The position numbers and the translations under genes were made by a program. From Ignavibacteriota bacterium (GTDB taxonomy: Bacteria > Bacteroidota > Ignavibacteria > UBA10030 > UBA6906), in NCBI GenBank assembly GCA_963702445.1, contig CAVPCZ010000012.1:193199-257198 (forward strand): a stretch of 64,000 nt of DNA. The letters run 5' to 3'. Shown in pieces: positions 20,097 to 36,631 of the stretch. The notes beneath the pieces are model-generated. The model did not search any database. It was not told the DNA's origin and worked only from the letters and a program-made list of their open reading frames with translations. Within the stretch, counting starts at the first letter, position 1; every line of letters starts with the position of its first letter.

Positions 20097-20350
20097 TTCA
20101 GAACCCGGACGAGATCAGGGTTATCCGTGGCTATGGCGTCCACCGGACAGTCTTCGGCCGCTTCACGCATGTACTCCTCTTCTTCCGCTGTTTGCGGCTG
20201 GCGGCTGACAAAGTACCTGTTCGACGATTTCTCAAAATCGAAATTGTCCGGCGCAATGGAGGCGCAGTAGGCGCATCCGTCGCACTCTTCGGTGGTAAAG
20301 AATTTGCCCGAGACGTTTTGCGGCAGCCGTCGTGTCGGTTCGGCGCTCAT
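20093..20350 (-). CDS. Small single-cluster ferredoxin
   Basis: CDGCAYCASIAP ... DCPVDAI pattern. The ATG at 20350 overlaps the haem-lyase stop by ATGA (the ORF-track start at 20365 is also possible). Confidence 0.6.
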   Translation of the reverse strand: MSAEPTRRLPQNVSGKFFTTEECDGCAYCASIAPDNFDFEKSSNRYFVSRQPQTAEEEEYMREAAEDCPVDAIATDNPDLVRVLK

Positions 20351-22581
20351 TGTTTCTCCCTCCATCGTTTCACTATTGCCAGGACAAAGCCCGTCATCAT
20401 CAACACCGTTCCACCCCAGAGGAGGTTGATAAACGGTTTCACACTCGCTTCCACCATCAATATCTCCGGGCTCGGGGTCCCGCCGCCGGCCTGCGTGAGG
20501 CCGAGCACGATGCTCGAGGACGTCGAACCCATGCCCGCGTTCACCCTGAGCAGTCGCACCTCCCCGCCCAGCAGCCGTGAGGGAAGTGCCTCCTGCGCCG
20601 GCGTTCCATCGGCCGCGTAGGTCATCAGCGGGGCCAGCTGTTCCCGTTCATTATCCTTCTGCACGTCGATCACCGCGGCGATGCGCATACCTCCCGCCCC
20701 CATTGCCGCACCCGGGGTCCCGTGGGAACCCATATCGAACCGGTTGAAGGTGATCTGTGCTCCGCCCGCTTCCGACGCGACGCCCTTCACCAGGTTGAGT
20801 TCGACCGTCCGGCCTCCCTCCCTGGGAGGCTCAAGAGACATCGGGGAGATATAGAAATCCCTGAAGGCAAAGGACGAGATGTCCGGATTCCTCATGATCC
20901 CCTGTGAGCCCGCCTCAAACATGACCGGGGACAGCGTGAAGACCTTCCCGTTTCCCTCCGCCCGGACACGGAACACATACTTGTCGTCCGCCGTGACCGA
21001 AAACCCTTCATACGTCAGCGTGTGTCCGAGAGCCGGCACGGGTTGTTCCCGGGGGAGCTGGAACTGCTCCGTCGAACTGTACTTCCCCGTGGAAACAACG
21101 CCGAGCAGAAAGAGTGCGAGACCCATATGGGCCACTTTGCCGCCGTGCAGCAGGATGCCGCCTTTGATGTTGGTGAGCACGATATCCACGTTGACGAACA
21201 GCGCAAACACGGCCGTGAAGACCAGTGCCGCAGTGGAACCCTCGCGCATCCCGGCGACATAGAGAATAAGGGTCACCGCAAACGCCGCGATGAGAGCCCG
21301 GAGGGATTGGCGCGAGGTGAGCCGGACATCCTGTTCTTCCCATTGCGTGTACAGGCTGATGCCGATGAGCAGCGCCATCATGATGACAAGGGGAAGATTG
21401 GTGGCGTCGTAGAATGCGGGTTCGACCCGGGTGGTGGAGAATATCGGCAGGCTGGTCCCGAAAAGGATGACAACCGCGCTGAGCAGGAGGGCAACCGCCC
21501 CGGCGGCAAGCGCAGTTTCGCGCGTGAGCCAGCCGCTTGTTGCACCGTCCGCCGCGAGGGATTTCCATCGGAAGGCCAGCAGGCCGAATCCGGAAAGTGC
21601 AATAAGAGAGAGAAATGCGAGCAGGAGCCAGTACACGGCGGAACCGGGATCGGTGAAGGCATGCACGGAGGCGTCGCCGAGTATGCCGCTGCGGGTCAGA
21701 AACGTGCTATAGATCACCAGGAAGAACGAGACAATGGCGAGTGTCACGTTTGTGCGCGGGTATCTGCCGGTACGGCGTTCCACAAGCATCGTGTGCACCA
21801 GCGCGATGCCTGTGAGCCAGGGAATGAGCGAGGAGTTTTCCACCGGATCCCAGCCCCAGTAACCGCCCCACCCCAGAACACCATACGCCCAGTATGCGCC
21901 GAGCATGATGCCCAGTCCGAGCACAGTCACCGCGAACAGGATCCAGGGCAGACCTTGCTGTGAAAGAAGTGTCCGGCGACCCGTCCAGAGGCCCGCCAGC
22001 GCCTGGCTGAAGGGCGCGGCCATTGCGGCAAATCCCAGAAAGAGGACCGGGGGATGAATCACCATCCAGAAATTCTGCAGGAGAGGATTCAGCCCGCGTC
22101 CGTCGGGGGGGATCTGTCCGGGAGGAATCTGCGGCCACATCTCCCACACCGGGCGGAAGGGGGACTTCGCAACGACAATGAGCAGAAGCATCGACTGGAC
22201 AAACAGAAACACGGTCATCACCCCGGATTCGCTGCCATGCTTCCGCCCGTACGAAGCGAGCAGGAGAGCAATCAGTGCCGAGCAGAGCGCCCAGAAGAGG
22301 AAGCTTCCCTCCTGGCCTGCATAAAAGCTGGACAGGAGGAAGTGCAGCGGCAGCGTGCTGTCGCTGTACCCGTAGACGTAGCCGTTGGTGAAGTCATTTC
22401 GCAAAAGGAGCGCCGTCAACAACGCCGATGCAAGCAGGATGAGAAGTGAACTGAGGTACAGGAGGGCTCGCGGTTGCGAAAGACGACCCCCTTTTGTGGA
22501 GGCAGCGCGAAGGTACCCGAGCGCTGAGAAGAGGGATGCAAAGAGCGCAAGGATGATGAACCAGTGTCCAAGAACAGTCAT
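20347..22581 (-). CDS. CcmF/NrfE-family cytochrome c haem lyase (744 aa, polytopic)
   Basis: WWD domain GAYWAYGVLGWGGYWGWDPVENSSLIPWL matches the CcmF/NrfE signature (WAYxELGWGGxWxWDPVEN). Many TM segments and a CcmF-like C-terminal domain. Confidence 0.85.
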   Translation of the reverse strand: MTVLGHWFIILALFASLFSALGYLRAASTKGGRLSQPRALLYLSSLLILLASALLTALLLRNDFTNGYVYGYSDSTLPLHFLLSSFYAGQEGSFLFWALCSALIALLLASYGRKHGSESGVMTVFLFVQSMLLLIVVAKSPFRPVWEMWPQIPPGQIPPDGRGLNPLLQNFWMVIHPPVLFLGFAAMAAPFSQALAGLWTGRRTLLSQQGLPWILFAVTVLGLGIMLGAYWAYGVLGWGGYWGWDPVENSSLIPWLTGIALVHTMLVERRTGRYPRTNVTLAIVSFFLVIYSTFLTRSGILGDASVHAFTDPGSAVYWLLLAFLSLIALSGFGLLAFRWKSLAADGATSGWLTRETALAAGAVALLLSAVVILFGTSLPIFSTTRVEPAFYDATNLPLVIMMALLIGISLYTQWEEQDVRLTSRQSLRALIAAFAVTLILYVAGMREGSTAALVFTAVFALFVNVDIVLTNIKGGILLHGGKVAHMGLALFLLGVVSTGKYSSTEQFQLPREQPVPALGHTLTYEGFSVTADDKYVFRVRAEGNGKVFTLSPVMFEAGSQGIMRNPDISSFAFRDFYISPMSLEPPREGGRTVELNLVKGVASEAGGAQITFNRFDMGSHGTPGAAMGAGGMRIAAVIDVQKDNEREQLAPLMTYAADGTPAQEALPSRLLGGEVRLLRVNAGMGSTSSSIVLGLTQAGGGTPSPEILMVEASVKPFINLLWGGTVLMMTGFVLAIVKRWREKQ

Positions 22582-22616
22582 TCAGTCTCCGAAAGTGTGT
22601 TGCGGCTAAATGAGGG

Positions 22617-22631
22617 TCAACATGCGTGCCA
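22617..22631 (-). promoter_or_regulatory. Sigma-54-type -24/-12 promoter candidate upstream of the haem-lyase gene
   Basis: The minus strand reads TGGCACGCATGTTGA. The -24 TGGCACG is perfect with correct N4 spacing, and the -12 is TTGA instead of TTGC. A GGAG sits 7 nt before the ATG at 22581. Confidence 0.5.
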
Positions 22632-22743: not shown

Positions 22744-22780
22744 CAAAAAAAGCTCCCGGCCCTTTTAGGGGGGGCCGGGA
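22744..22780 (-). terminator. Rho-independent terminator ending the cytochrome operon
   Basis: On the minus strand, CCCGGCCC-cccctaaaa-GGGCCGGG is followed by AGCTTTTTTTG. It lies 63 nt downstream of the lipoprotein cytochrome stop at 22843. Confidence 0.65.
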
Positions 22781-22842: not shown

Positions 22843-24246
22843 CTAGAAGCTCCGCTCGGTATTGAAGGCGTTTACTTTGCCGTTGATGTGTTTGGTCTTG
22901 TCGATGATATTGCCGGAGCCGTTGACGACTCCGGGGTGACAGTTGACGCAGCTGGTGAGCGTCGCGGATGTATGGCCGGCCGGAGGCAGGCCGTGACAGC
23001 TTCCGCATGCGCCGTCGGTGCTTCCGCCGTTCCAGGATGGTGCGAAGTTCGTCCCCGCCATCACGCTATCCGTGAAGGCGAACGAGAAGGAAGATGTGGC
23101 GCGCGAAAGACGCCAGGCCCCATGGCAGTATGTATTGCTGCACTTGAATGTTGTGGTGCCGTAGGCCGGAACCGGCAGGTAGTTCCCGCCGGTTCCGGTG
23201 GCAAGACGCGCCAGCGTATCCCGGAACACGACTTCGGCCGGCAATTGTGTGTCAACGTGCCCGGGGGGGAACGTCTGGGCGGGCACCAGATGGCATTCGG
23301 CACATTTCACGGATTTGCCCAGGTTTCCGGAGACAAGATGCTTCTGATGCGCCCCGATGGCGTGAACGACGGGCGGATTGTCCTGTGAATCCCCCAGGAC
23401 AGTCTTGGGCGGTGCGGCGGAGAGAGCATCGCCCGAGGCGGCGCGGAACTGACCGTGACACGTGTTACAGGCTTCAGGGGATTTCGGCGTGCCGCCGGCA
23501 TCGGCATGGCAGGGAACAGTGGAACAGCTCACATTCACCACCGGACCGCCGGTATACGATGCGCCGTGACAGGTTTTGCATTGCGCCAGGGGATACCCCT
23601 TACTCAGCAGATAGCCGGGATGTCCTGACGATGCCTGGAAGACGGTGTGCGGATAGGAAGCATGGCAGGTGAAGCATGATACACCGCTTGTTCCACCGGT
23701 ATAATTCTCACCATGGCACGCGGCGCATTCCGTCAGCTGCCAGTTCTTTCCTTTCAGGTAGCGGCCGTGAGACGCCGTTGATGCGGGATTGCCCCATCCG
23801 GTGCGGTGGGGATACGAAGCATGGCAGGTGTAGCAGGAAACACCGCTTGTGCCGCCCGAGAAATCCGCGCCGTGACAGGCGGCGCAATCGTCCAGCGTCC
23901 CCATGTCCAGGCGCAGGAACTTCCCATGGAACGTCGTCGCGGCTGTATCCACCCAGCCGGGTTTGTGCGGATAGGACGTGTGACAGCCGTAGCACGAAAC
24001 GCCGCTCGTGCCTCCCGAATAGGCCTTCGAATGGCACGACACGCAGTCCGTGTTCTCGTACTGCGGTCCCGACAGTACGGTGCCGTGAAAGGCCGGAGAG
24101 GCGGGATCATTCCAGCCGGTCTCATGAATGCCCTGCGGGGCCATGGGAGCGGGAAGATCTTGTTTCAGCTCGCTGCAGGCCCCGAGCAGCAATGCCGTCG
24201 TGAGCAGAGCGAACGTCGCCGGAAATCGATGAAAGTGTACGCGCAT
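22843..24246 (-). CDS. Multihaem c-type cytochrome lipoprotein, 13 haem motifs (11 CxxCH + 2 CxxxxCH)
   Basis: Lipobox ALLLGAC at residues 18-24. CxxCH x11, plus CSTVPCH (23506-23526) and CSNTYCH (23122-23142), both verified from the DNA. The C-terminal CxxxxCH...CxxCH pairing resembles the Geobacter-type C4xCH/C2xCH domain. Confidence 0.88.
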   Translation of the reverse strand: MRVHFHRFPATFALLTTALLLGACSELKQDLPAPMAPQGIHETGWNDPASPAFHGTVLSGPQYENTDCVSCHSKAYSGGTSGVSCYGCHTSYPHKPGWVDTAATTFHGKFLRLDMGTLDDCAACHGADFSGGTSGVSCYTCHASYPHRTGWGNPASTASHGRYLKGKNWQLTECAACHGENYTGGTSGVSCFTCHASYPHTVFQASSGHPGYLLSKGYPLAQCKTCHGASYTGGPVVNVSCSTVPCHADAGGTPKSPEACNTCHGQFRAASGDALSAAPPKTVLGDSQDNPPVVHAIGAHQKHLVSGNLGKSVKCAECHLVPAQTFPPGHVDTQLPAEVVFRDTLARLATGTGGNYLPVPAYGTTTFKCSNTYCHGAWRLSRATSSFSFAFTDSVMAGTNFAPSWNGGSTDGACGSCHGLPPAGHTSATLTSCVNCHPGVVNGSGNIIDKTKHINGKVNAFNTERSF

Positions 24247-24262
24247 GGGTCCTCCGCCCTCC

Positions 24263-25465
24263 TTAGCCGTGACAGTAACCGCAGAAGTTTCTTCCCTTCA
24301 CGCCATCGGGTCGGGCATTCAGGTCTGTGTGACAGTTGAAGCATGTGGCCCCGGCACTGGTATGCCAGGGTCCGTGCTCATCCTTCAAAAAAGAACCGGG
24401 ATGTGTGCGCGGGTCGGTTCCCCGTATGCCGTCGGCGTCAACATGACAGGTGACGCATACCGGATCGTTGCCCTGCGTGTCGTGGCAGCTCACACAGCTC
24501 TCGATATCGCGCCGCGCGAGGGTTGCATGGGTACCGCCGCCGCTGCCGACACCGATGGTGGCAAACCCCGCCCCCAGGTGCCAGGCCGGCGTGAACGCCT
24601 GCGAGGTGATGTTGTCGCCCGTCGCATGACATTCCGCGCAGAATTCCTGCTGCGAATGGCAGCCGTAGCAGTCGGCGCTCTTCGACTTCGCATCGATGCC
24701 ATGGGTGAACCGGTAGTTCATGTCGTGTGCGAGCTGCAGGCTCATCTGTTGCGAGCCGTTTCCCGGAAACGTCCGCGGGGTGGGATCGGCCATCAGGGCG
24801 CCCTGGCCGAACTGCGCCAGCGCGGCGGGGGCATGACACTCGGCACAGAACGTCTGTGTGTGGCAGGTGGAGCAGCTGGTTTCCAGTGCTCCGACCCGGG
24901 TCAGCTGCTTGTGCTCCTTTTTGAAGTTTCCCACCAGGTGGTCGGGTGGAACGAGCTGCACAAAGCTGGTATGACACGCCTCACACGCGTTGGTCACCTT
25001 CCGGTCGTTGTGGCAGGTGTTGCAGGTCGCCATCGAAGGCATGTGTTTCGGTGCAGCGTAATCGGCCTCTTCGAGTCCGGCATGGCAGGTCGTGCACTGG
25101 ACGTCTTTCTGTGAAACATGCCGTTCATGGGAGAAGAGCAGCTCGCGCACGGCGGGAGCGGCAGGCTGGATATTGTCGGGATCCAGATGGCAGTAGCTGC
25201 ACTGGTTGCCCAGCTGCTCCTCGTGGCAGGACTGACAGTTGTCGTGGCCCGCACGGAGATTGTCGGACGCCAGTTTGCTTGTGGCTGCCGGGTGGCAGTT
25301 TTCGCACGCCACGCCGGCGTCGGCGATATGCGTCTTGTGGGAGAACTTCAGCTGCTTGTTGTCGGCCCGGTCGGGCCACCCGTTCCGGAGGGCGGGTTTG
25401 TGGGCGACCGCGGTGATCAGCCCGGCGGCAACAATGAGCAGGAAAACCAGATAACGGCGGATCAT
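24263..25465 (-). CDS. Periplasmic 14-haem c-type cytochrome
   Basis: N-terminal signal or anchor (MIRRYLVFLLIVAAGLITAVA) and 14 CxxCH motifs in 400 aa. The start overlaps the beta-barrel stop by ATGA (25462-25465). Confidence 0.9.
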   Translation of the reverse strand: MIRRYLVFLLIVAAGLITAVAHKPALRNGWPDRADNKQLKFSHKTHIADAGVACENCHPAATSKLASDNLRAGHDNCQSCHEEQLGNQCSYCHLDPDNIQPAAPAVRELLFSHERHVSQKDVQCTTCHAGLEEADYAAPKHMPSMATCNTCHNDRKVTNACEACHTSFVQLVPPDHLVGNFKKEHKQLTRVGALETSCSTCHTQTFCAECHAPAALAQFGQGALMADPTPRTFPGNGSQQMSLQLAHDMNYRFTHGIDAKSKSADCYGCHSQQEFCAECHATGDNITSQAFTPAWHLGAGFATIGVGSGGGTHATLARRDIESCVSCHDTQGNDPVCVTCHVDADGIRGTDPRTHPGSFLKDEHGPWHTSAGATCFNCHTDLNARPDGVKGRNFCGYCHG

Positions 25466-26772
25466 TGTGCGCCCTCCCCTTTGAAGATGGACAGCCGTTG
25501 CGCGAACCAGTACATCAGCTTCACCTGCAGGCGCAGATCACGCTGGGAGATTTTGTTCGTCAACCATTGCCCCTGCACGTCGAAGGAGAACGCCTGTGTG
25601 GGGCGGACGATCGCGCCGAGCAGCACCGACAGGGCGTTATCGCGTGAGCTTTCTTTGCTCAGGCGGTAGGATGCATACGAAAGCCCGGCGGTCGGGATCA
25701 CGGTCCGGCCGAAGAACGGGTACGATCCCTGGAGGCTGACCGACTGCAATTCTCCTGCATAGCCGTCGCTGCCGGTATACGCGAGGCTGCCGTAGCCGTT
25801 GTTCACGCCCACGCTCCAGCGCGTGCTCTGCTCGTCGGTATAGCTGACGCTCGCCACCCGGGCGAAGGCGCGGAGGAGGGGGGTAAAACCGTACTCCACG
25901 CCTCCCTCGATTTCATTCACCGCATTGGCGACAAACGCCGAGAATATGGAGTTGTACGAGAGTCGCGGCGCGCGGTGAATGTAGTCCGCGGTCAGGGACA
26001 GCGCCTCGGTCACGTACACCCGCGCACCGCCCTGTGCCCGTGCGGTGCGGGATCCGGCGAAGTCATAATCGTACCTTCCGTACGCGGAGAAGCGGCCGGC
26101 ATATTCGTACCGTGCTTCCGCACTGGCCACTTCCTGGGCCGGCGAATCGTTTGCGATATAGTACGACACCGGGGCAAACGAGGTATCGCGCGCGCGGACG
26201 GTCCAGTACGGGTCTCGCTCCTCGTGCCGGTTCATGTAGCTCAGGCCGATGCGTGCGCCCGGCAGGAGTGTTGTCACCACCTGCCCGCCGAAGTGGTAGT
26301 TGTCGTGCAGGTTTTCCCGGACACCCGTGAAGTCCGGGCTGACCGTTGAGCCGGCAAAACCCGTCACCGTCACCTTCTGCTGGAGAAATCGTGCGCGGGC
26401 GAGAAATCCGTCTATCGTCCCGACTCCTGCGCCTGCATACACCGCCTGCCGTCCGACGTTCAGGTCAAGTACCTTGCCGATGTTGGCCCAGGTCAGGTAG
26501 AGGTTATAGAAGCGCACGCGCCCGACGTCGCCGAAGTCCCCGGCCAGATTGGCCGCCCCCTGGATGAAGGTGTTCACGGAAACGTCGCCCTGCGTCATGG
26601 AAAGCTGGATATTCTGGAAGGCGCGAATGCGCTGGTGGGACACGCCCACCGTATCGAACTGTTCCCAGCCGTAGAAGGATGTCGCCAGACGTCCCGTCAC
26701 CAGCTGCGCGGGCGCGCCGGCGACGCAGACCAGAATCAGCAGGGCGAGGGGGAGAGAGCGTGGTGTCTTCAT
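25462..26772 (-). CDS. Predicted outer-membrane beta-barrel (porin-like) protein of a porin-cytochrome module
   Basis: Signal peptide MKTPRSLPLALLILVCVAGAPAQ from ATG 26772. The remaining ~410 aa show alternating hydrophobic/polar strands rich in Y/G/S/T/R with no Cys and no haem motif, and an aromatic-rich C-terminal region (LMYWF). Barrel call by composition and pattern only. Confidence 0.65.
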   Translation of the reverse strand: MKTPRSLPLALLILVCVAGAPAQLVTGRLATSFYGWEQFDTVGVSHQRIRAFQNIQLSMTQGDVSVNTFIQGAANLAGDFGDVGRVRFYNLYLTWANIGKVLDLNVGRQAVYAGAGVGTIDGFLARARFLQQKVTVTGFAGSTVSPDFTGVRENLHDNYHFGGQVVTTLLPGARIGLSYMNRHEERDPYWTVRARDTSFAPVSYYIANDSPAQEVASAEARYEYAGRFSAYGRYDYDFAGSRTARAQGGARVYVTEALSLTADYIHRAPRLSYNSIFSAFVANAVNEIEGGVEYGFTPLLRAFARVASVSYTDEQSTRWSVGVNNGYGSLAYTGSDGYAGELQSVSLQGSYPFFGRTVIPTAGLSYASYRLSKESSRDNALSVLLGAIVRPTQAFSFDVQGQWLTNKISQRDLRLQVKLMYWFAQRLSIFKGEGAQ

Positions 26773-26816: not shown

Positions 26817-28316
26817 TCAGAGACCGGAATGGCATTCGACGCAGTTGGTCTCCTGCCATGCATCGCCGATATCCTCGGGGTGCTGGAACGGAAGTCCGGC
26901 CACGGTGAGCGTCTGCGGCACGGGATCCGTCCCCTGATACAGAATCGTATGACAGCTGTTACAGTCCTTGCTGATGCGCTTCCCGTCCGCGCTCACATGT
27001 TTCCCGTCATGGCAGCGAAAACAGCCGAGGTCTGTCATATGGCCGATATGGCTCGGGTAGGCGCTCCAGCGTACATTCATGAGGGGAAAGAAGTTCTTCC
27101 GGTATTGCGCAACAAGCTCCTGTCCGGCCGCGAGAATGCGCGCTCCTTCGGTGGCGGCCACCTGCGGATACTCGCGTTCATAGTAGGCGCGCAGCAGGTG
27201 CGGTATGCTGTCCGCCGCTTCCCCGGCTGTGGTATAGGGACGTTTCAGCAGATCCATTGCTGTTTCACGGACACGCGGCAGCGAGGGGCTTATCGTTCCG
27301 CGCGTCAGGCTCCGGTCCACGATGCGGGCGGGGGGAAGATAAATGTGGGATGGGCGGTTGTGGCAATCCATGCAATCCATGCGCGACCACTCCCCACTCC
27401 GCAGGCCGGCGGTGTCCGCCGGCATTTCTTCGGCGGCATACTCGGTGACCGTACCCGTGCGTTGATCTCTGACGCGAACCAGGGGGATCGACTGACGGAG
27501 GGAATCCACGGCAACGTACGTCACTTCATTGGCGGGGTTCACGTGCCAGTGGATGCCGTTGGCGGGTCCCCGTTCTTCATTCCCGCCGCCGATTTTCATC
27601 AGCAGCGCGAGAGTCCACCGGGTGTTCGCTTCATCGGACTTGAAATAGGTGTTGACGTATTTCTTTTCCCCGGCGAAATGGGACGGCCAGTGGCACTGCT
27701 CACAGGTTTCCCGGGCGGGGCGCAGGTTCTTGATGGGGGTAGGGATCGGCCGGGGGTACACGTTGGCAAGCACGGCGTACACCTGGTACGCCCCGGAAAG
27801 TTTGGACTTGACATACCATCCGGCACCCGAGCCGACGTGGCAGTCAACACACTTGACCCGTGCGTGCGGCGAGTTCAGGTAGGCCGTATACTCCGGTTCC
27901 ATAACATCATGACAGGTTGCGCCGCAGAAGGGCACCGATTCCGTCCACTCAAACGTCCGGTAACTCCCGTACGCCGTGAAGAGCAGGACAACGGCCGTCA
28001 CCCCGGCGAAGAGCGCAAGTGCGGACCGGTGATGCGGCACGCCGAGGTCGATCGTGAGGACCTTTTTACTCGCCGGCCGGCCGGCACGCAGACGCCGCCG
28101 CTCCCGTACCGCTCCCACAGGGATCATCAGCAGCCCCAGCAGCAACGGCACCGGCAGGGCGATATACGAGATGATCCCGATGTACGCCGGCGCGTTTTCC
28201 TGCACCATCTCCACCATGGTGAGAAACAGAATCGTCAGAAGGCACGCGCTCGCCAGGGCTGCCCCCACAATACTTATGGGGTTGTAGAAAATCTCCGGGA
28301 GCTTTCTTTTTTTCAT
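26817..28316 (-). CDS. Membrane-anchored heptahaem c-type cytochrome (NapC/NirT-like region; ImcH-like architecture)
   Basis: Three N-terminal hydrophobic segments are followed by FCGATCHDVM (CxxxCH, 27909-27926, checked in the DNA) and six CxxCH motifs. The 499-aa length and layout match the description of the Geobacter inner-membrane quinol oxidase ImcH. Confidence 0.75.
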   Translation of the reverse strand: MKKRKLPEIFYNPISIVGAALASACLLTILFLTMVEMVQENAPAYIGIISYIALPVPLLLGLLMIPVGAVRERRRLRAGRPASKKVLTIDLGVPHHRSALALFAGVTAVVLLFTAYGSYRTFEWTESVPFCGATCHDVMEPEYTAYLNSPHARVKCVDCHVGSGAGWYVKSKLSGAYQVYAVLANVYPRPIPTPIKNLRPARETCEQCHWPSHFAGEKKYVNTYFKSDEANTRWTLALLMKIGGGNEERGPANGIHWHVNPANEVTYVAVDSLRQSIPLVRVRDQRTGTVTEYAAEEMPADTAGLRSGEWSRMDCMDCHNRPSHIYLPPARIVDRSLTRGTISPSLPRVRETAMDLLKRPYTTAGEAADSIPHLLRAYYEREYPQVAATEGARILAAGQELVAQYRKNFFPLMNVRWSAYPSHIGHMTDLGCFRCHDGKHVSADGKRISKDCNSCHTILYQGTDPVPQTLTVAGLPFQHPEDIGDAWQETNCVECHSGL

Positions 28317-28443
28317 CGTATGGAAAGGTGGATGCGGGGCATCGGGCAGGAGACGGGACCGGCCGGTTCGGCGCGGTCCCGCGTACCCGTCGTCTGTTTC
28401 GGTTTACTTCTTGGGAAGCTTGTGCGCGATTTTCGCCCACCAC

Positions 28444-28944
28444 TCATCGTACTTGAAACCCTTTGAACGTCGGGCTTCCGGCGTTGTGGCAGGTTTCGCA
28501 CGTCTTCTTTGCCGCATCACCTGTCACGAGACCGGCCTCGACGGCCTTCGCCTTGTTTTCGGCCTTCGTATGCAGCGTCTTGAAGCCGGATGCCGCACCG
28601 TGGCACGCTTCGCAGGTGACACCTTCCTTCATGTCGAAGGTCTTCTCTACATTGGCGGCGGTTCCACCACCGGCCACATGGCATTTCAGGCACTCGGGGC
28701 TTTCGGCCGGCGGTTTGGCAAGACCCTTTTCCTTGCCGATCTTCTTGGCCGCTTCGCCCTCCAGGGTCTTGTACGCCCCGGCGTGCGCGGTTTTGGCCCA
28801 GATCGTGAACGCCTCTCCCTTGTCCTTCGCCTTGTGACACATGGCGCAGGTTTTGGTGCCCACGAATTTGTTCTCCGCCACCGCTGTGCCACCGCACAAC
28901 ATCAGCGCAACGGCGAACAGAAGGACCACACAGGCTGTTTTCAT
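28444..28944 (-). CDS. Small periplasmic tetrahaem cytochrome c
   Basis: Signal peptide MKTACVVLLFAVALMLCGGTAVA and four CxxCH motifs (CAMCH, CLKCH, CEACH, CETCH) in 166 aa. GGGAGGAAG precedes the ATG. Confidence 0.88.
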   Translation of the reverse strand: MKTACVVLLFAVALMLCGGTAVAENKFVGTKTCAMCHKAKDKGEAFTIWAKTAHAGAYKTLEGEAAKKIGKEKGLAKPPAESPECLKCHVAGGGTAANVEKTFDMKEGVTCEACHGAASGFKTLHTKAENKAKAVEAGLVTGDAAKKTCETCHNAGSPTFKGFQVR

Positions 28945-29008
28945 TTACGGCTTCCTCCCAGAAATGATGGATGATCAGAAATGTACACGAAAACAATACA
29001 AGATGCCA

Positions 29009-29863
29009 CTACTGGTATGCAAACACCATTGCATAGATGATCCATACGACGATGCTGAAGCCGGTACCCAGGGCCGTCCATGCGAACACCCGGATTGCCC
29101 TGATGACGATCGCCGGATAGGGTTCCGCCAGGCGCGACTCCAGTTCGCCGGATGCCGCCACCGATGCGTATTCGGCGGGTTTGTCCATCTTCAACTCCTC
29201 CACCGGCATCCGTCCGGTGAAGATGACCATATCCATCGGAAATTTTTCCGGGCGCAGGTGGGTGTTGAAAAAGTGGATGGTGAAGATGAACCCGGTGGCC
29301 AGCAATGCCTCGTCACTGTGTATGATCGTCGCCACGTTGATCATCCAGCCCGGGAACAGCTGCGTGAAGAATTCAGGGAACCAGAGAGTGAAGCCGGTCG
29401 ACCCGATCACCACCATCCCCCAGAAGACCGCGAAATAGTCGAACTTCTCCCAGTAGGTCCACCGGCCGAATTCCGGGCGGGGCCCCATACCCAGAAACCA
29501 TTTCACGGATGCAACGAACTGGTGCAGATCGGTTTTCGTCGGCAGCATGGTGTCGGGACCGAACAGGAGACCCTTCCAGCCGCCGATTCCCCGCCGCTTC
29601 CGCCGGAACAGGTCCACGATGTGGACCAGGAACACGCCCACCATGATGGTGGCCGCAAACCGGTGGAAATAACCGGCGGTCTCATACCCGCCGAAGAGGT
29701 GGGAGAGAAACGACGCCCAGCCGGTATAGGAAAACTTCAGAGTCATTCCCGTCAGTGCCAGGCTCAAAAAACTGACGATCATCAGGATATGCAGGATCCG
29801 GTTGAGCCGTGTAAACCGGACGTACTGGCGTTCGTTGCTGTTATCCACTGTGCTGTGCTCCAT
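29009..29863 (-). CDS. Cytochrome b subunit (HydC/FdnI-like, polytopic)
   Basis: YVRFTRLNRILHILMIVSFLSLALTGMTL aligns with YLRMTLGERIQHGTLLVSFITLVLTGFAL in the C-terminal domain of the 31858-33993 protein. It has conserved His in TM helices and 4-5 TM segments. Start uncertain: ATG 29863 or GTG 29929, both overlapping the upstream gene. Confidence 0.78.
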   Translation of the reverse strand: MEHSTVDNSNERQYVRFTRLNRILHILMIVSFLSLALTGMTLKFSYTGWASFLSHLFGGYETAGYFHRFAATIMVGVFLVHIVDLFRRKRRGIGGWKGLLFGPDTMLPTKTDLHQFVASVKWFLGMGPRPEFGRWTYWEKFDYFAVFWGMVVIGSTGFTLWFPEFFTQLFPGWMINVATIIHSDEALLATGFIFTIHFFNTHLRPEKFPMDMVIFTGRMPVEELKMDKPAEYASVAASGELESRLAEPYPAIVIRAIRVFAWTALGTGFSIVVWIIYAMVFAYQ

Positions 29864-31853
29864 CTTCCTGGGTTGTTCCTTCCGCCGGGCCCGGAGGCGG
29901 TGGTGTCTGCTCCGCACGTCTGCGTTCACGCTGCCAGCGCAGGGCCCTGGGCAGCCAGAGCAACGTGTGAATGCCGCTCACCACAAATGTGACGACCAGC
30001 AAACCGGTCATTCCCCAGAAGGTCCAGAAGAGCCAGGGATATTTTGCCGGATCATGATGCGTCGCATGGGTAAGGTAGCCCGCAAAGCGCCGGTTTGCCC
30101 CCGGATGGCACTGCTGGCATGTAGCGACAACATTCTCGCGGCTGAGATGTGACCGCGGGTCGGCGATGGGCAGGATGTCATGTGCGCCGTGACAGCTGTA
30201 GCATTGTGCCGTTTTGGTGTAGCCGAGTTGCGACACTTTTCCGTGATACGTGTCGAAGTACGTCTTCGCAATCGCCTCGTGGCATCGGCCGCACTGGTTC
30301 ATAATCGTGAGCTTGAACCCCTCCTCGTCGGCGCGGCGGATCGTATGGGCGCTGTGGCAGTCGTCGCACACCGGCAGCTGCTTCGTGGTCTTCCCGATCT
30401 GGGAAACGTGCACGCTGCGGGCAAATTGTTCCTCCACCCCGTGATGGCACCGTCCGCACGTGGAGGGGACATTGCGCGGATTGATGCTGGAGAGTGTATC
30501 GGCGCGCGGAAGAACCCTGTGCGCCGTGTGGCAACTCGTGCATGTCGCCGTCACCGTTAATCCACCGCGGGACAGCCCCTTGCCGTGGGTGCTTTCACGG
30601 TAATGCTCGACAATCTGATGTTGATCGCCTGTGTACCGCACGGCCGCTTTCTGGCCTTCACGATGGCAACGCGCACAGAGGGCCGGAATATTGGTGGGAA
30701 ACGTGGAGGAAGCGGGCTGGGTCTTGCCGAGAATGCCGTGCGTGCCGTGGCATTCCTTGCATGTCGGCGCATTGGGATCGTTCCGCACGAAGAGCTGTCC
30801 GTGCGTGCTCTGGAGGTATTCCCGGCCGACTTCCGCATGACAGGATGCGCAATCGACACGCTGGGTGATGGTCTGGCAGGGCCGCTCCTTCGCCGCATTC
30901 ACACCGGCATGGCACTGGCTGCAGGAGATCTTTGCGTGCCGTGAGCCCGCCAGATGTCCGGGTGTCACGGCCATGGACCGGCCGTCCCTGGCCGAAACAA
31001 GATCCGCCCTGGCGTGGCACCGCAGGCAATCCCGGTCGGCCATTCCCTGGTCGTAGAATACCTTTCGTACCTTGTGCGGCTGGTGACAATCCACGCATGC
31101 CGGCAGCATATGGGCCTCTTTTTCCCACAGCTCCCCCTTGATCACCTTTCTATGCACACTCTCGATCTGTGCGTGACATTTTGTGCATGTTGCCGCGATG
31201 TTCCTGCGGGCGATGGATGACGCCGGATCCGTGTGCGGAAGAATGGAGTGGGCGGTGTGGCAGGATGCGCAGGTTGCCGACACGATGAGACCTTTTTTCA
31301 GCAGGCCTTCGCCGTGGATGCTCTCGGAGAAATTCTCCAGGATATGATCCTGATGGATCGTCCGCTGCCGGGCGACGGGTGCGCCTTCCTGGTGGCATTT
31401 GCCGCAGAGGAACGGCACCTGCAGGGGCGACACCGGAGAACGCGCATCGGTGACTTTTGCGATGGCGTGGTTTCCGTGGCAATCGGCGCAACGGGGCGCG
31501 AGCGGATCCCCCCGCCCGGCGGCCTTCCCGTGCAGCGAACGGGTGTGCAGTGCGGACTCCGTGCCATGACAATCGGCGCACACCGCAGGTGCAAGGTCTT
31601 CTTCGTGCGGCAATTCCTTCCCCGCAAGATCGGCGTGACAAGCGACGCAGGGAACATCCGCATGGACCGACCCGGCGAATTTCTTCTGGTCCACGAACAT
31701 CGGCACCGTTTTTCCGCGCTTCGTCCCCGTCAGCGCCCTGTCCTCGTGGCAGGCGAGGCAATCGGTGGACTCCTGGGCCCTCGCCCTCCCCGCACAGATC
31801 AGTGCGGCAGCGGCGAGAATCAGGATCCTTGAAAACGCACGGCGGGCGGTCAT
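29841..31853 (-). CDS. 19-haem c-type cytochrome with signal peptide and one C-terminal TM anchor
   Basis: Signal peptide MTARRAFSRILILAAAALICAGRARAQ from ATG 31853, 19 CxxCH motifs, and a C-terminal helix YPWLFWTFWGMTGLLVVTFVVSGIHTLLWL followed by a basic tail. Confidence 0.88.
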   Translation of the reverse strand: MTARRAFSRILILAAAALICAGRARAQESTDCLACHEDRALTGTKRGKTVPMFVDQKKFAGSVHADVPCVACHADLAGKELPHEEDLAPAVCADCHGTESALHTRSLHGKAAGRGDPLAPRCADCHGNHAIAKVTDARSPVSPLQVPFLCGKCHQEGAPVARQRTIHQDHILENFSESIHGEGLLKKGLIVSATCASCHTAHSILPHTDPASSIARRNIAATCTKCHAQIESVHRKVIKGELWEKEAHMLPACVDCHQPHKVRKVFYDQGMADRDCLRCHARADLVSARDGRSMAVTPGHLAGSRHAKISCSQCHAGVNAAKERPCQTITQRVDCASCHAEVGREYLQSTHGQLFVRNDPNAPTCKECHGTHGILGKTQPASSTFPTNIPALCARCHREGQKAAVRYTGDQHQIVEHYRESTHGKGLSRGGLTVTATCTSCHTAHRVLPRADTLSSINPRNVPSTCGRCHHGVEEQFARSVHVSQIGKTTKQLPVCDDCHSAHTIRRADEEGFKLTIMNQCGRCHEAIAKTYFDTYHGKVSQLGYTKTAQCYSCHGAHDILPIADPRSHLSRENVVATCQQCHPGANRRFAGYLTHATHHDPAKYPWLFWTFWGMTGLLVVTFVVSGIHTLLWLPRALRWQRERRRAEQTPPPPGPAEGTTQEDGAQHSG

Positions 31854-31857
31854 GTGC

Positions 31858-33993: not shown

Positions 33994-34119
33994 GCTTCTC
34001 TCCGGAATCAGACTACCAATGGATATAAGGGGGTCAATCAACATGCCAAGGTTCGATCGTTGAAATTGTTGAAATTTGCCACATCTTCGATCGACACTCA
34101 CTGTCTTTTTTCCCAAAAA

Positions 34120-34136
34120 TGCGATATTGGTGCCGG
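34120..34136 (-). promoter_or_regulatory. Sigma-54-type -24/-12 promoter candidate upstream of the CbcL-like gene
   Basis: The minus strand reads CCGGCACCAATATCGCA, with GG-N10-GC spacing exact (GGCAC ... TCGCA against the consensus TGGCACG-N4-TTGCW). It lies 38 nt after the receiver-gene stop. Confidence 0.45.
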
Positions 34137-34173
34137 AGATTTGCACACCTGGGAAAAGGGTGTCGGGGTGGGA

Positions 34174-35266: not shown

Positions 35267-36631
35267 CTAACCCTGCGAAGGGATATTCAGCTCTTCGATC
35301 TTCCGGTAGAGGGATGAGAGGCTGATACGCAGGGCCTTGGCGGTCAACTCCTTGTTGTACTGGTTGGACCGGAGGACGTGACTGATATACTGCCGCTCGA
35401 ATTCATCCACCGCGTCTTTCATCGACCGGCGCGCATCGAATGCATAAACCGCATCGGTGCGCTGATCGAACAGCGTCGGCAGCTCTCTCTTGGTCAGGAT
35501 AGTCCCCTCCGAAAAGATCACCGCCCGTTCGATGACGTTTTCCAACTCCCGGATCTCACCCTTCCAGGTGTGCGCCATCAGGCATTTCATGACCTCGTTG
35601 TCCACGCCGCGGACATCCTTGTTCATTTCCTTGGCATGCTTTGCCACGAAATGATTCACGAGCATCGGAATATCATCGACACGTTCGGAGAGAGAGGGGA
35701 GCGTCAGCTCGACGATATTCAACCGGTAGAACAGATCCTCCCGGTAGCGGCCCTCTTCCACTTCCTTTGCGAGGTTCTTGTTTGTGGATGCGATAATCCG
35801 CACATCCACGGACATGGGCATTGAGGTGCCGACGGGGGTAATCTCTTTCAGTTCAATCGCCCTCAACAACTTCACCTGCAAGTGAAGGGGGATTTCGCTC
35901 ACCTCATCGAGGAAGAGACTCCCGCCGTCCGCGGCCTTGAAGAACCCCTCCTTGTCCATGGAGGCACCGGTGAAGGCACCGCGTTTATGCCCGAACAGTT
36001 CGCTCTCGAACAGATTTTCCACGATCGCGCCGCAGTTGATCGGGACAAACGCCCGGCCGGCACGATGGCTGCTGAAGTGGATCGCCCGGGCGACCAGTTC
36101 CTTCCCCGTCCCGCTTTTCCCGTTGATAAGCACTGTTCCGTCGGTGACCGCCACCTTTTTGATGGTATCGAACACCCGCTGCATGGCCGGACTCTGTCCG
36201 ACGATCTCGTCGAAGTTGTACTGCCGGTGCAGCTCACCCCGCAACAGCCGGTTTTCCAGACTCACGCGCCGGGTCGCCAGGAGGCGGTTCACCTTCACGA
36301 GCAGTTCATCGAACTCGACCGGTTTGAGGATGTAGTCGACGGCACCCTTGCGCAGTGCGGCGATTGCGGTGTCGATGGACCCGTATGCCGTGATGATCAT
36401 CACCAGCGTTTCGGGGCTAACGGCGGCGACCTGTTCCAGCAGCTCGATCCCTTTCATCTCGGGCATCTCGAGATCCGTGATCACCAGATCGAAGGACTGC
36501 TCCCGGATCAGGTCGAGGGCGAGCTTTCCGTTTGCCGCTTCGCGGACCGTGAAACCCTCTTTGGTCAGGACGAAGGAGAGGGATTCGCGAATGATCTCTT
36601 CATCATCCACGATCAGAATCGTATCAGCCAT
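35267..36631 (-). CDS. Sigma-54-dependent response regulator (NtrC family: REC + AAA+ + Fis-type HTH)
   Basis: REC: ILIVDDEE ... DLVITDLEMPEMKG. AAA+: INGKSGTGKE, ESELFGHKRGAFTGA (GAFTGA loop), and an RxDLYYRL-like EDLFYRLN. C-terminal HTH: NKELTAKALRISLSSLYRKI. The ATG at 36631 follows the kinase stop. Confidence 0.92.
   Translation of the reverse strand: MADTILIVDDEEIIRESLSFVLTKEGFTVREAANGKLALDLIREQSFDLVITDLEMPEMKGIELLEQVAAVSPETLVMIITAYGSIDTAIAALRKGAVDYILKPVEFDELLVKVNRLLATRRVSLENRLLRGELHRQYNFDEIVGQSPAMQRVFDTIKKVAVTDGTVLINGKSGTGKELVARAIHFSSHRAGRAFVPINCGAIVENLFESELFGHKRGAFTGASMDKEGFFKAADGGSLFLDEVSEIPLHLQVKLLRAIELKEITPVGTSMPMSVDVRIIASTNKNLAKEVEEGRYREDLFYRLNIVELTLPSLSERVDDIPMLVNHFVAKHAKEMNKDVRGVDNEVMKCLMAHTWKGEIRELENVIERAVIFSEGTILTKRELPTLFDQRTDAVYAFDARRSMKDAVDEFERQYISHVLRSNQYNKELTAKALRISLSSLYRKIEELNIPSQG

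What the first reader, a model, noticed from the sequence alone, without database searches (positions are those of the whole stretch)
22843..26772. Porin-cytochrome trio: a beta-barrel ATGA-coupled to a 14-haem cytochrome, followed by a 13-haem lipoprotein
The 25462-26772 product has a signal peptide, no Cys and no haem motif, and a Y/G/S/T-rich alternating pattern typical of outer-membrane barrels. Its stop overlaps the start of the 14-haem cytochrome by ATGA (seen in the DNA at 25462-25465). The lipoprotein cytochrome (lipobox LLGAC) starts 16 nt after that gene.

A barrel, a periplasmic decahaem-class cytochrome and a surface lipoprotein cytochrome form the logic of MtrCAB and Geobacter Pcc conduits. 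The haem numbers here (14 and 13) and the gene order (barrel first) differ from both. This suggests an independent or highly diverged conduit family.
Basis: partly seen in the sequence, partly recalled or inferred. Interest (0 to 1): 0.75.

Follow-up and report, generated by a model that had tools for sequence, protein, structure and literature searches.

The report
Ignavibacteria-type porin-cytochrome electron conduit
Three adjacent genes encode an outer-membrane barrel, a 14-haem cytochrome and a surface-type lipoprotein cytochrome; this is a predicted electron conduit across the outer membrane of a kind already described in Ignavibacterium album, and it sits at the end of a larger respiratory gene cluster.

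Summary
On the minus strand lie a 436-aa signal-peptide protein (25462-26772), a 400-aa cytochrome with 14 CXXCH (24263-25465) and a 467-aa lipoprotein cytochrome with 11 CXXCH + 2 CX4CH (22843-24246). The first two overlap by ATGA; the third starts 16 nt later. AlphaFold2 models the first protein as a 22-24-strand barrel with short loops and no plug (pLDDT 83.6).

The porin-cytochrome logic is well supported. The barrel is followed by a 12-14-haem c7-type cytochrome in about 55 loci across Ignavibacteriota/Bacteroidota, Calditrichota, KSB1, Marinimicrobia and Zixibacteria.

It is not a new conduit family. Shi et al. 2014 described this arrangement in Ignavibacterium album, with porin IALB_1839, a periplasmic cytochrome IALB_1838 of "400 residues and 14 haem motifs", and IALB_1837 with atypical motifs. 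The Geobacter cluster is named ombB-omaB-omcB, porin first.

The trio is also the distal end of a larger locus. Upstream are a CbcL-like 13-haem/cytochrome b fusion, a 19-haem cytochrome with a separate cytochrome b, a c554-like tetrahaem and an ImcH-like cytochrome. A CcmF-like haem lyase lies downstream.

Verdict: a new member of a known, experimentally uncharacterised branch of Pcc conduits. Interest is modest.

The parts
25462..26772 (-). Porin-like outer-membrane beta-barrel (436 aa; Sec signal peptide; conserved C-terminal ...KLMYWF)
   Evidence: ORF and translation. AlphaFold2 model: pLDDT 83.6, pTM 0.74, 24 strand elements, loops of at most 17 residues, no plug domain. Foldseek finds only generic 16-24-strand barrels at TM ~0.4. 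No Pfam or NCBIfam family passes threshold. 219 close homologues, all annotated 'hypothetical'. 478 representative clusters in 1.84 billion proteins.
24263..25465 (-). 14-haem c7-module cytochrome (400 aa; signal peptide with TAVA|H site), predicted periplasmic/intra-barrel haem wire
   Evidence: 14 CXXCH, all invariant in 39 homologues together with 12 conserved extra His. Pfam Cytochrome_C7 and Cytochrom_CIII. The best solved relative is 3OV0, the Geobacter GSU1996 dodecahaem of c7 repeats, E 2e-26. ATGA overlap with the barrel.
22843..24246 (-). Lipoprotein multihaem cytochrome (467 aa; lipobox LLGA-C24; 11 CXXCH + 2 CX4CH), predicted outer-surface terminal cytochrome
   Evidence: Residues 41-255 form 3.5 tandem 53-aa dihaem repeats. 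The C-terminal CxxxxCH/CxxCH domain matches TIGR01904 at 43.4 bits, above the cut-off of 27. A conserved post-Cys motif C-S-E-L-K-x-D-L-P-x-P is shared with counterparts in related loci.
22745..22779 (-). Intrinsic-terminator-like hairpin plus U7 that closes the operon after cytB
   Evidence: Sequence, coordinates. RNA fold -22.8 kcal/mol, z -2.35. The simple terminator scan did not call it.
26817..28316 (-). ImcH-like inner-membrane cytochrome (499 aa; 3 N-terminal TM helices; NapC/NirT region; first motif CGATCH = CX3CH, plus 6 CXXCH); stop is 44 nt upstream of the barrel start
   Evidence: (PF03264, 50.5 bits). The architecture equals that published for ImcH, with 3 TM helices, NapC/NirT homology and 7 motifs of which the first is CXXXCH. 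Conserved at 497-499 aa in most related loci.
28444..28944 (-). Periplasmic tetrahaem cytochrome, c554-like (166 aa, signal peptide)
   Evidence: 4 CXXCH. PF13435 Cytochrome_C554, 62 bits. Conserved next to the barrel in many loci. It corresponds in position to the periplasmic IALB_1840 of Shi 2014.
29009..29929 (-). Membrane cytochrome b of the FdnI/HydC type (the start is probably downstream of the listed GTG)
   Evidence: PF01292 Ni_hydr_CYTB, 41 bits. TIGR01583 formate-DH gamma-like, sub-threshold.
29841..31919 (-). 19-haem cytochrome with a C-terminal TM helix; partner of the cytochrome b (split CbcL-like unit)
   Evidence: 19 CXXCH. Pfam c7, c3 and Paired_CXXCH. Conserved at 650-715 aa in related loci.
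31858..34146 (-). CbcL-like fusion: 13-haem c-type domain plus a C-terminal FdnI/HydC-type cytochrome b domain (the true start is probably the internal Met before LILGGLLF)
   Evidence: 13 CXXCH. PF01292 at residues 535-717 plus c7/c3 domains. Conserved at ~720 aa in related loci.
20347..22581 (-). CcmF/NrfE-family haem lyase-like membrane protein (744 aa, WGGYWGWDPVEN motif); own transcription unit downstream of the terminator
   Evidence: PF01578 (106 bits) and PF16327 (78 bits). TIGR00353 scores 260 bits, below its cut-off of 569. It is conserved immediately downstream of the outer cytochromes in ~30 related loci, including the I. album-labelled MAG.
35267..36730 (-). Sigma-54-dependent response regulator (NtrC type), candidate regulator of the locus
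   Evidence: Pfam Response_reg, Sigma54_activat and HTH_8. Conserved upstream in many loci.
36624..38048 (-). PAS-domain histidine kinase, candidate sensor
   Evidence: Pfam PAS, HisKA and HATPase_c.

Best explanation
The three genes encode a Pcc-type (porin-cytochrome) trans-outer-membrane electron conduit of the Ignavibacteria/FCB-group branch.

Proposed mechanism:
1. The 436-aa protein is exported by Sec and folds into a wide 22-24-strand outer-membrane barrel. It has very short loops and no plug.
2. The 14-haem cytochrome is made from the same mRNA by translational coupling. It is built from c7-type trihaem modules and is threaded into or docked under the barrel as an insulated haem wire.
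3. The lipoprotein cytochrome (13 haem motifs) is anchored by its lipidated Cys24 at the outer face. It accepts electrons from the wire and passes them to an extracellular acceptor such as Fe(III)/Mn(IV) minerals, humics, or another insoluble or large oxidant.
4. Electrons come from the menaquinol pool through the inner-membrane cytochromes encoded just upstream: the ImcH-like protein, the CbcL-like fusion, and the 19-haem cytochrome with its cytochrome b. They cross the periplasm via the c554-like tetrahaem protein.
5. The barrel plus the 12-14-haem cytochrome is the conserved core. The outer cytochrome is an exchangeable module.

Shown here: gene structure, motifs, the barrel fold prediction, family relationships and conserved synteny.

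Inferred: complex formation, topology, surface exposure of the lipoprotein, direction of electron flow and the acceptor.
For: - Gene structure and motifs.
- Barrel model: 24 strand elements, loops of at most 17 residues, pLDDT 83.6. From barrel geometry the C-alpha diameter is about 39-48 A. That is too open for a diffusion porin and similar in logic to MtrB sheathing MtrA (own knowledge).
- ATGA coupling in the window, with a 4-nt or 1-nt overlap in 18 of 44 related loci and gaps under 50 nt in most others.
- The barrel is followed by a 12-14-haem cytochrome of ~330-435 aa in essentially every locus with sequence downstream. This holds for 53 species-level loci and for distant Marinimicrobia, Zixibacteria and Cloacimonadota loci.
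- The third cytochrome varies (11+2, 7+2, 8+1, 6+1/5+1, 21+10 motifs) while the pair stays constant. This matches the published Pcc pattern, where porin and periplasmic cytochrome co-evolve and the outer cytochrome does not.
- cytA is related to the GSU1996 c7-repeat 'nanowire' cytochrome, E 2e-26.
- cytB has a lipobox and a TIGR01904 domain above cut-off.
- The upstream genes have ImcH-like and CbcL-like architectures.
- Literature: the I. album Pcc cluster IALB_1840-1837 has a 400-aa, 14-haem periplasmic cytochrome. [quoted passage not shown] ImcH and CbcL homologues are counted in Ignavibacteriae.
- A MAG labelled Ignavibacterium album (L036) has the same order: 4-haem, then barrel (430 aa), then 14-haem (411 aa), then a 6+1 lipoprotein. 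Identity to the window proteins is 39-40%, 48% and 34%.
Against: - No experiment exists for any member of this branch. I. album, which carries the cluster, was reported unable to grow on Fe(III) or Mn(IV) oxides, so the acceptor is unknown.
- Direct sequence homology of this barrel to Geobacter OmbB could not be tested here, because no Geobacter sequence was obtainable. The published identity is only 19-20%, so 'Pcc' may be an architectural class rather than one homologous family.
- No curated Pfam or NCBIfam model recognises the barrel.
- The cytA structure prediction failed (pLDDT 54), so the wire length and its fit into the barrel are not modelled.
- The post-Cys motif only partly matches the Bacteroidota surface-export signal, so surface exposure of cytB is not established.
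- The link to IALB_1839/1838 rests on the published description and on a MAG labelled I. album, not on the type-strain sequence.
Confidence: 0.8

Rival explanations
1. The hardware is the same but runs in reverse. The conduit takes electrons up from extracellular donors (Fe(II) minerals, reduced humics, a syntrophic partner or a cathode) and feeds them inward to the quinone pool, as the MtoAB/PioAB relatives of MtrAB do.
For: - Porin-cytochrome modules are known to work in both directions, and sequence does not reveal direction (own knowledge; the Mto pathway is summarised).
- I. album carries the cluster but does not grow on Fe(III)/Mn(IV) oxides.
- CbcL/MtoC/MtrH-type proteins are treated as one group that includes oxidisers.
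Against: - The locus contains an ImcH-like protein. ImcH is genetically tied to reduction of high-potential extracellular acceptors in Geobacter.
- The locus has an extracellular lipoprotein cytochrome. The 'mto-like' systems of the Fortney 2018 classification lack one.
- Related Ignavibacteria were enriched on anodes and at Fe(III)-reducing sites.
Confidence: 0.15
2. There is no trans-membrane wire. The barrel is an ordinary substrate porin, and the cytochromes are a periplasmic or outer-membrane-associated reductase for a soluble compound such as selenite/tellurite, sulfur species or nitrogen oxides.
For: - Pcc-like clusters occur in organisms that respire soluble or non-metal acceptors.
- Some Geobacter Ext clusters are annotated for selenite/tellurite reduction, as shown by weak NCBIfam ExtN/ExtO/ExtKL matches of the upstream cytochromes.
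- There is a sub-threshold Porin_O_P match of 16.9 bits.
Against: - The barrel and the 12-14-haem cytochrome are coupled by overlapping stop/start codons, and the pairing is conserved across several phyla. Such strict pairing is not expected for a general porin.
- A 22-24-strand barrel with minimal loops and no constriction would be a leaky hole if left empty.
- No catalytic subunit (molybdopterin, sirohaem, copper and so on) is encoded in the locus.
Confidence: 0.07
3. One reading: this is an evolutionarily independent, previously unrecognised conduit family that merely converges on the Mtr/Pcc logic.
For: - No Pfam or NCBIfam model hits the barrel, and no solved structure is related by sequence.
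- Foldseek TM-scores are only ~0.4 to any solved barrel.
- IALB_1839 and IALB_1838 are outliers in the published Pcc trees.
- The family appears confined to FCB-group phyla among the members I could name.
Against: - The same cluster type was already catalogued as Pcc in I. album in 2014, with the same 400-aa/14-haem cytochrome.
- It has been detected repeatedly with OmbB-derived HMMs or BLAST in Ignavibacteria, and by homology of the porin in Caldithrix.
- In Table S1 of Shi 2014, IALB_1839 is most similar to the OmbB-group porins (19-20%), against 11-12% for the other listed non-Geobacter porins.
- 'Previously unrecognised' is therefore false, whatever the deep evolutionary origin.
Confidence: 0.1

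Closest known systems
Ignavibacterium album JCM 16511 Pcc cluster IALB_1840-IALB_1837 (Shi, Fredrickson & Zachara 2014, PMC4245776)
   Same: [quoted passage not shown]
- A MAG labelled I. album (L036) shows this order, with 39-40%, 48% and 34% identity to the window's barrel, cytA and cytB.
   Different: - The window's outer cytochrome is larger: 467 aa with 11+2 motifs and 3.5 dihaem repeats. L036 instead has two smaller lipoproteins, 6+1 and 5+1.
- In the window the ImcH-like gene sits between the tetrahaem gene and the barrel.
- The host is a ~60% GC uncultured Bacteroidota/Ignavibacteriota lineage. Its closest genome is MFD04716.bin.1.116, 97% identical at the barrel.
- Identity to the type-strain proteins themselves was not measured.
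Geobacter sulfurreducens OmbB-OmaB-OmcB / OmbC-OmaC-OmcC porin-cytochrome complex
   Same: - The three-part logic matches, and the cluster is named porin first: porin, then periplasmic multihaem, then lipoprotein multihaem.
- The barrel is much smaller than MtrB.
- The outer cytochrome carries atypical CX4CH motifs and the Geobacter CxxxxCH/CxxCH domain.
- Associated ImcH- and CbcL-type quinol oxidases are present.
   Different: - OmaB has 8 haems, against 14 here. OmcB has 12, against 13 motifs here.
- Published porin identity for the I. album orthologue is only 19-20%.
- AlphaFold suggests 22-24 strands, against the 18-22 predicted for Pcc porins.
- In Geobacter the quinol oxidases are encoded elsewhere (imcH is monocistronic). 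Here they are in the same locus.
Shewanella oneidensis MtrCAB
   Same: The functional logic matches: a periplasmic haem wire sheathed by a barrel, with a surface lipoprotein cytochrome.
   Different: - No family membership. The barrel is 436 aa with no MtrB_PioB/TIGR03509 hit.
- cytA is built from c7 modules and has no DmsE/MtrA (TIGR03508) hit.
- cytB scores below threshold for the MtrC/MtrF domain, 28.4 bits against 30.
- Gene order also differs: mtrC-mtrA-mtrB (own knowledge).
GSU1996 dodecahaem cytochrome of G. sulfurreducens (PDB 3OV0)
   Same: It is the best solved sequence relative of cytA (E 2e-26, three matched stretches). Both are concatenated c7-type modules.
   Different: - GSU1996 is a soluble periplasmic protein with 12 haems and is not encoded next to a barrel (own knowledge).
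- cytA has 14 haems and is always barrel-coupled.

Membership tests
Pcc porin-cytochrome gene cluster (as defined by Shi et al. 2014) | [quoted passage not shown] | tested here: met
   436 aa with a signal peptide. The AlphaFold2 barrel has 24 strand elements; two short low-confidence ones make it 22-24. This is slightly above the published predicted range.
Pcc porin-cytochrome gene cluster (as defined by Shi et al. 2014) | Adjacent gene for a periplasmic multihaem c-type cytochrome (5-14 haems) that co-varies with the porin | tested here: met
   14 CXXCH with an ATGA overlap. The pairing is conserved in about 55 loci, and identities of the two proteins fall together.
Pcc porin-cytochrome gene cluster (as defined by Shi et al. 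2014) | Adjacent outer-membrane multihaem cytochrome, often with atypical CXnCH motifs and not co-evolving with the other two (optional component) | tested here: met
   Lipobox, 11 CXXCH + 2 CX4CH, and TIGR01904 above cut-off. Its architecture is highly variable among related loci.
Pcc porin-cytochrome gene cluster (as defined by Shi et al. 2014) | Detectable sequence homology of the porin and periplasmic cytochrome to Geobacter OmbB/OmaB | not testable with these tools
   No Geobacter sequence could be fetched. Published figures: IALB_1839 is 19-20% identical to OmbB-group porins, and OmbB-based HMM/BLAST screens detect Ignavibacteria porins.
Pcc porin-cytochrome gene cluster (as defined by Shi et al. 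2014) | The three proteins form a complex that transfers electrons across a membrane (shown for Geobacter by Liu et al. 2014) | not testable with these tools
   This needs biochemistry. A monomer model of cytA was unusable (pLDDT 54), and no multimer prediction was available.
Ignavibacteria-type Pcc branch (IALB_1839/IALB_1838 type) | A ~400-aa periplasmic cytochrome with 14 CXXCH, encoded directly after a ~430-aa porin-like protein | tested here: met
   The window has 400 aa with 14 motifs after a 436-aa barrel. [quoted passage not shown] The I. album-labelled MAG L036 shows 39-40%/48% identity and the same order. Type-strain sequences were not compared directly.
MtrCAB / MtoAB / PioAB | Barrel of the MtrB/PioB family (~650-700 aa, 26-28 strands) | tested here: not met
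   No MtrB_PioB or TIGR03509 hit in Pfam or NCBIfam. The barrel is 436 aa. MtrB is not among the top 50 Foldseek matches.
MtrCAB / MtoAB / PioAB | Periplasmic decahaem of the MtrA/DmsE family (TIGR03508) and a surface decahaem of the OmcA/MtrC family (TIGR03507) | tested here: not met
   cytA hits only c7/cIII-type models. For cytB, PF22113 scores 28.4 bits, below the cut-off of 30, and there is no TIGR03507 hit.
ImcH (upstream gene 26817-28316) | Three N-terminal TM helices, a NapC/NirT-homology region, and seven c-haem motifs of which the first is CXXXCH | tested here: met
   Three hydrophobic N-terminal segments. PF03264, 50.5 bits. CGATCH followed by 6 CXXCH. Direct alignment to GSU3259 was not possible.
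CbcL (upstream gene 31858-34146) | A multihaem c-type periplasmic domain fused to a HydC/FdnI-type dihaem cytochrome b membrane domain | tested here: met
   13 CXXCH plus PF01292 at residues 535-717. Geobacter CbcL has 9 haems (own knowledge), so the haem number differs. Direct alignment was not possible.
Bacteroidota surface lipoproteins (LES-dependent export) | [quoted passage not shown] | tested here: inconclusive
   The window has C-S-E-L-K-Q-D: polar at +2, acidic at +3 and +7, but no acidic pair. The motif C[ST][EK]L[KR]x[DE]LPxP is strongly conserved among the outer cytochromes, but its role is unknown.

The most novel reading that the evidence does not exclude
The FCB-group barrel plus its c7-module 12-14-haem cytochrome may be a structurally distinct, independently evolved class of trans-outer-membrane wire. 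In that reading it is neither MtrAB-like nor truly homologous to Geobacter OmbB/OmaB. Its surface cytochromes would be delivered by a dedicated conserved N-terminal signal (C-S-E-L-K-x-D-L-P-x-P). Their atypical CX4CH haem sites would be matured by the CcmF-like lyase that is always encoded next door.
Probability: 0.2. Interest if true: 0.55.

Novelty: new member of a known kind. Interest (0 to 1): 0.3.

Why it matters
This adds one more well-resolved example of the Ignavibacteria-type Pcc conduit, from an uncultured Bacteroidota/Ignavibacteriota lineage whose related MAGs carry soil, fen and peat sample labels.

The more useful results come from the comparative work:
- The barrel/12-14-haem pair is a conserved core across the FCB superphylum. 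There are 478 sequence clusters, and no Pfam or NCBIfam model covers them.
- In this lineage the whole quinol-to-surface route is encoded in a single locus: the ImcH-like and CbcL-like proteins, the tetrahaem carrier, the conduit, and a haem-lyase-like gene.

That makes the locus a compact candidate for heterologous reconstruction of extracellular electron transfer from a non-proteobacterial source. It could also serve as a marker set for predicting extracellular respiration in soil and peat metagenomes. Nothing here overturns current understanding.

Tried and rejected
1. An AlphaFold2 model of the 14-haem cytochrome from a 39-sequence alignment gave pLDDT 54 and pTM 0.33. It was unusable, so no fold search was run and no wire length was estimated from it.
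2. PDB sequence searches with the barrel profile and with cytB returned nothing meaningful. Foldseek of the barrel gave only generic porins and ushers at TM ~0.4.
3. A direct test of homology to Geobacter OmbB was not possible.
4. I tried to reach the I. album type-strain proteins by a homology search seeded with the L036 cytochrome. The 3.64-Mb contig hit turned out to be another MAG, so the link to IALB_1838/1839 stays literature-based.
5. An exact look-up of the window's barrel in the contig index found nothing. The cytA look-up found only a 2.4-kb metagenome contig, so no provenance was gained.
6. A sigma-54 promoter search found two well-placed TGGCAC-N5-TTGA sites. However, the window-wide count (23) is below the shuffle expectation (29.5), so these are not evidence on their own.
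7. The simple terminator scan missed the hairpin after cytB. It was found by eye and supported by folding.
8. The Melioribacter roseus genome and multi-omics papers contain no description of this cluster. A 2026 peat preprint on porin-cytochrome clusters concerns Acidobacteriota and Verrucomicrobiota only.
9. The longer barrel ORF (start at 26859) was rejected because homologues are 430-440 aa.

Full report
**1. What is in the sequence**

All three ORFs are on the minus strand.

The first gene (25462-26772) encodes 436 aa. It has a Sec signal peptide (MKTPRSLPLALLILVCVAGAPA|Q), no haem motif and no Cys outside the signal peptide. The longer reading from 26859 is unlikely, because 219 homologues cluster at 430-440 aa.

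Its TGA stop overlaps the ATG of the second gene as ATGA at 25462-25465. The second gene (24263-25465) encodes 400 aa with a signal peptide and exactly 14 CXXCH motifs.

Sixteen nucleotides after its TAA stop, the third gene begins (22843-24246, 467 aa). It has the lipobox LLGA-C24 and 11 CXXCH plus two CX4CH motifs.

A GC-rich hairpin followed by U7 at 22745-22779 ends the unit.

**2. The barrel**

An AlphaFold2 model built on 42 homologues has mean pLDDT 83.6 and pTM 0.74. It shows 24 beta-strand elements averaging 11.6 residues, joined by loops of 2-17 residues, with no helical or plug domain. Two short elements (189-194, 201-206) are of low confidence, so I call it a 22-24-strand barrel.

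Simple barrel geometry gives a C-alpha diameter of roughly 39-48 A.

Foldseek against the PDB finds only generic 16-24-strand barrels (OccAB, AlgE, PapC/FimD ushers) at TM ~0.4. Profile searches find no solved sequence relative and no Pfam or NCBIfam family above threshold; Porin_O_P scores 16.9 bits against a cut-off of 20.9.

**3. The cytochromes**

*cytA.* All 14 CXXCH motifs and a dozen further His residues are invariant across 39 homologues. Pfam assigns c7 and class III modules. The closest solved protein is GSU1996 (3OV0), the Geobacter dodecahaem made of c7-type repeats, at E 2e-26. cytA has no MtrA/DmsE signature. A monomer AlphaFold model without haems was of low confidence and was discarded.

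*cytB.* Residues 41-255 form 3.5 tandem 53-residue dihaem repeats. The C-terminal part matches the Geobacter 'CxxxxCH/CxxCH' domain (TIGR01904, 43 bits, cut-off 27).

**4. Relatives and synteny**

A scan of one genome per GTDB species found 53 loci encoding the barrel:
- uncultured Ignavibacteriota/Bacteroidota MAGs, the closest being MFD04716.bin.1.116 at 97% identity
- a MAG labelled Ignavibacterium album (40%)
- Calditrichota and KSB1 (27-32%)

In essentially every locus with sequence downstream, the barrel is followed by a 12-14-haem cytochrome of ~340-435 aa. One or two further multihaem cytochromes then follow, with very variable motif numbers: 11+2, 7+2, 8+1, 6+1 with 5+1, and a 21+10 protein of ~1090 aa placed upstream of the barrel in KSB1.

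The barrel stop and cytochrome start overlap by 4 nt in 15 loci and by 1 nt in 3. Most other gaps are below 50 nt.

An exhaustive profile search of 1.84 billion representative proteins gives 478 clusters at E<=1e-3. Distant members carry Marinimicrobia, Zixibacteria and Cloacimonadota names. Their loci again show the barrel immediately followed by a 12-14-haem c7-type cytochrome.

The conserved core is therefore the barrel plus the 12-14-haem cytochrome, and the outer cytochrome is exchangeable.

**5. The trio is the end of a larger locus**

Upstream on the same strand lie, in transcription order:
- a 13-haem cytochrome fused to an FdnI/HydC-type cytochrome b (CbcL-like; 31858-34146)
- a 19-haem cytochrome with a C-terminal anchor (29841-31919)
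- a separate cytochrome b (29009-29929)
- a c554-like tetrahaem (28444-28944)
- a 499-aa protein with three N-terminal TM helices, a NapC/NirT region, and one CX3CH followed by six CXXCH (26817-28316)

The last is exactly the architecture published for Geobacter ImcH.

Further upstream are a universal stress protein, a sigma-54-dependent response regulator and a PAS histidine kinase. Downstream of the terminator is a CcmF/NrfE-family protein.

Most of these neighbours are conserved in the related loci. Some relatives add a Rieske/cytochrome b pair.

**6. Comparison with what is known**

Shi, Fredrickson and Zachara (2014) defined Pcc clusters as three parts:
- a porin-like protein with 18-22 predicted strands
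- a periplasmic cytochrome with 5-14 haems
- usually an outer-membrane cytochrome, often with atypical motifs

The first two co-evolve and the third does not.

They list the I. album cluster. IALB_1840 is periplasmic. IALB_1839 is the porin. [quoted passage not shown] IALB_1837 has atypical motifs.

Their Table S1 puts IALB_1839 at 19-20% identity to OmbB-group porins and 11-12% to the other listed non-Geobacter porins.

Later surveys add to this:
- Geobacter/OmbB-like Pcc systems were found in Ignavibacteria MAGs from bioanodes and an iron-rich hot spring.
- ImcH and CbcL homologues were counted in Ignavibacteriae.

The Geobacter cluster is named ombB-omaB-omcB, porin first.

The window's trio therefore matches a described kind in gene order, protein sizes and haem count. 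It is not an Mtr-family system, because the three Mtr family signatures were searched for and not found.

**7. Mechanism, with status of each step**

Shown here: gene structure, motifs, the predicted barrel fold, translational coupling, family relations and conserved synteny.

Inferred:
- The 14-haem c7-module protein occupies the barrel lumen as an insulated wire, by analogy with MtrAB.
- cytB is lipid-anchored on the outer face and is the terminal reductase.
- Electrons arrive from menaquinol via the ImcH-like and CbcL-like proteins and the tetrahaem carrier.
- The acceptor is extracellular.

The wide barrel with minimal loops is hard to reconcile with an empty diffusion pore, and this favours the sheath model.

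Direction of flow and the acceptor are open. I. album carries the cluster yet does not grow on Fe(III)/Mn(IV) oxides.

**8. Novelty and score**

This is a new member of a known but experimentally uncharacterised branch. The residual novelty lies in three points:
- the breadth of the barrel family across the FCB group, without any curated model
- the single-locus organisation of the whole predicted pathway
- the conserved post-lipobox motif and the adjacent CcmF-like gene, neither of which I found described in the papers I read

Interest is 0.3.

Noticed in passing
window 26817-34146 (-): Five further respiratory genes lie directly upstream of the trio on the same strand. They are a CbcL-like 13-haem/cytochrome b fusion, a 19-haem cytochrome, a separate FdnI-type cytochrome b, a c554-like tetrahaem, and an ImcH-like 7-motif cytochrome whose first motif is CX3CH. 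Together with the trio they form a complete predicted quinol-to-surface pathway in one locus.
   Followed up: yes
window 24142-24177 (-), i.e. cytB residues 24-35; also L001-L054 counterparts: Right after the lipobox Cys, the outer cytochromes in ~45 loci share the motif C-[ST]-[EK]-L-[KR]-x-[DE]-L-P-x-P (window: CSELKQDLPAP). This holds even where the rest of the protein is only 26-35% identical and ranges from 289 to ~1090 aa. It only partly resembles the Bacteroidota lipoprotein export signal. It could be a sorting signal or a docking peptide.
   Followed up: partly
window 20347-22581 (-): A divergent CcmF/NrfE-family haem-lyase-like gene carries the WWD motif WGGYWGWDPVEN and scores well below the NCBIfam cut-offs. 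It sits just after the terminator and is conserved at this position in ~30 related loci, with no other ccm genes beside it. It may be a dedicated lyase for the CX4CH/CX3CH sites of the neighbouring cytochromes.
   Followed up: partly
window 23482-24126 (-), cytB residues 41-255: There are 3.5 tandem 53-residue dihaem repeats of the form HxxGW...FHG...CxACHG..(F/Y)(S/T)GGTSGVSC(Y/F)xCHxSYPH. Relatives with 7+2 instead of 11+2 motifs appear to differ by repeat number, which suggests length tuning of the outer cytochrome by repeat gain and loss.
   Followed up: partly
window 35137-35152 (-) and 22616-22631 (-); regulator 35267-36730 (-); kinase 36624-38048 (-): Two TGGCAC-N5-TTGA sigma-54-like sites lie 33-35 nt upstream of the USP gene and of the CcmF-like gene. 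They are next to an NtrC-type sigma-54 activator and a PAS histidine kinase that are conserved in related loci. The window-wide count of such sites is not above chance.
   Followed up: partly
L048, L051, L053 (KSB1 / Cytophagia-labelled MAGs), ~6600-9900: In these distant loci a ~1090-aa lipoprotein cytochrome with 21 CXXCH plus 10 CX3-4CH motifs is encoded immediately upstream of the barrel instead of downstream.
   Followed up: no
L054 2810-4335; L057 8832-10360: Some relatives, including a closed 3.64-Mb MAG and a Marinimicrobia contig, have a Rieske protein and a cytochrome b (bc-type complex) inserted among the cluster's cytochromes. In the Marinimicrobia locus an EB_dh-domain lipoprotein precedes the barrel.
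   Followed up: no
window 34174-34656 (-): A 160-aa protein with no Pfam hit lies between the USP gene and the CbcL-like gene. It is conserved in related loci at 47-90% identity. Its function is unknown.
   Followed up: no
window 17698-20365 (-) and 38157-40622 (-): The flanking genes are ordinary metabolism. On one side are a methionine gamma-lyase-like PLP enzyme, an Acg-family nitroreductase and a small 4Fe-4S ferredoxin. On the other are S-adenosylhomocysteine hydrolase and SAM synthetase. The first three stay syntenic with the cluster in many related MAGs.
   Followed up: partly
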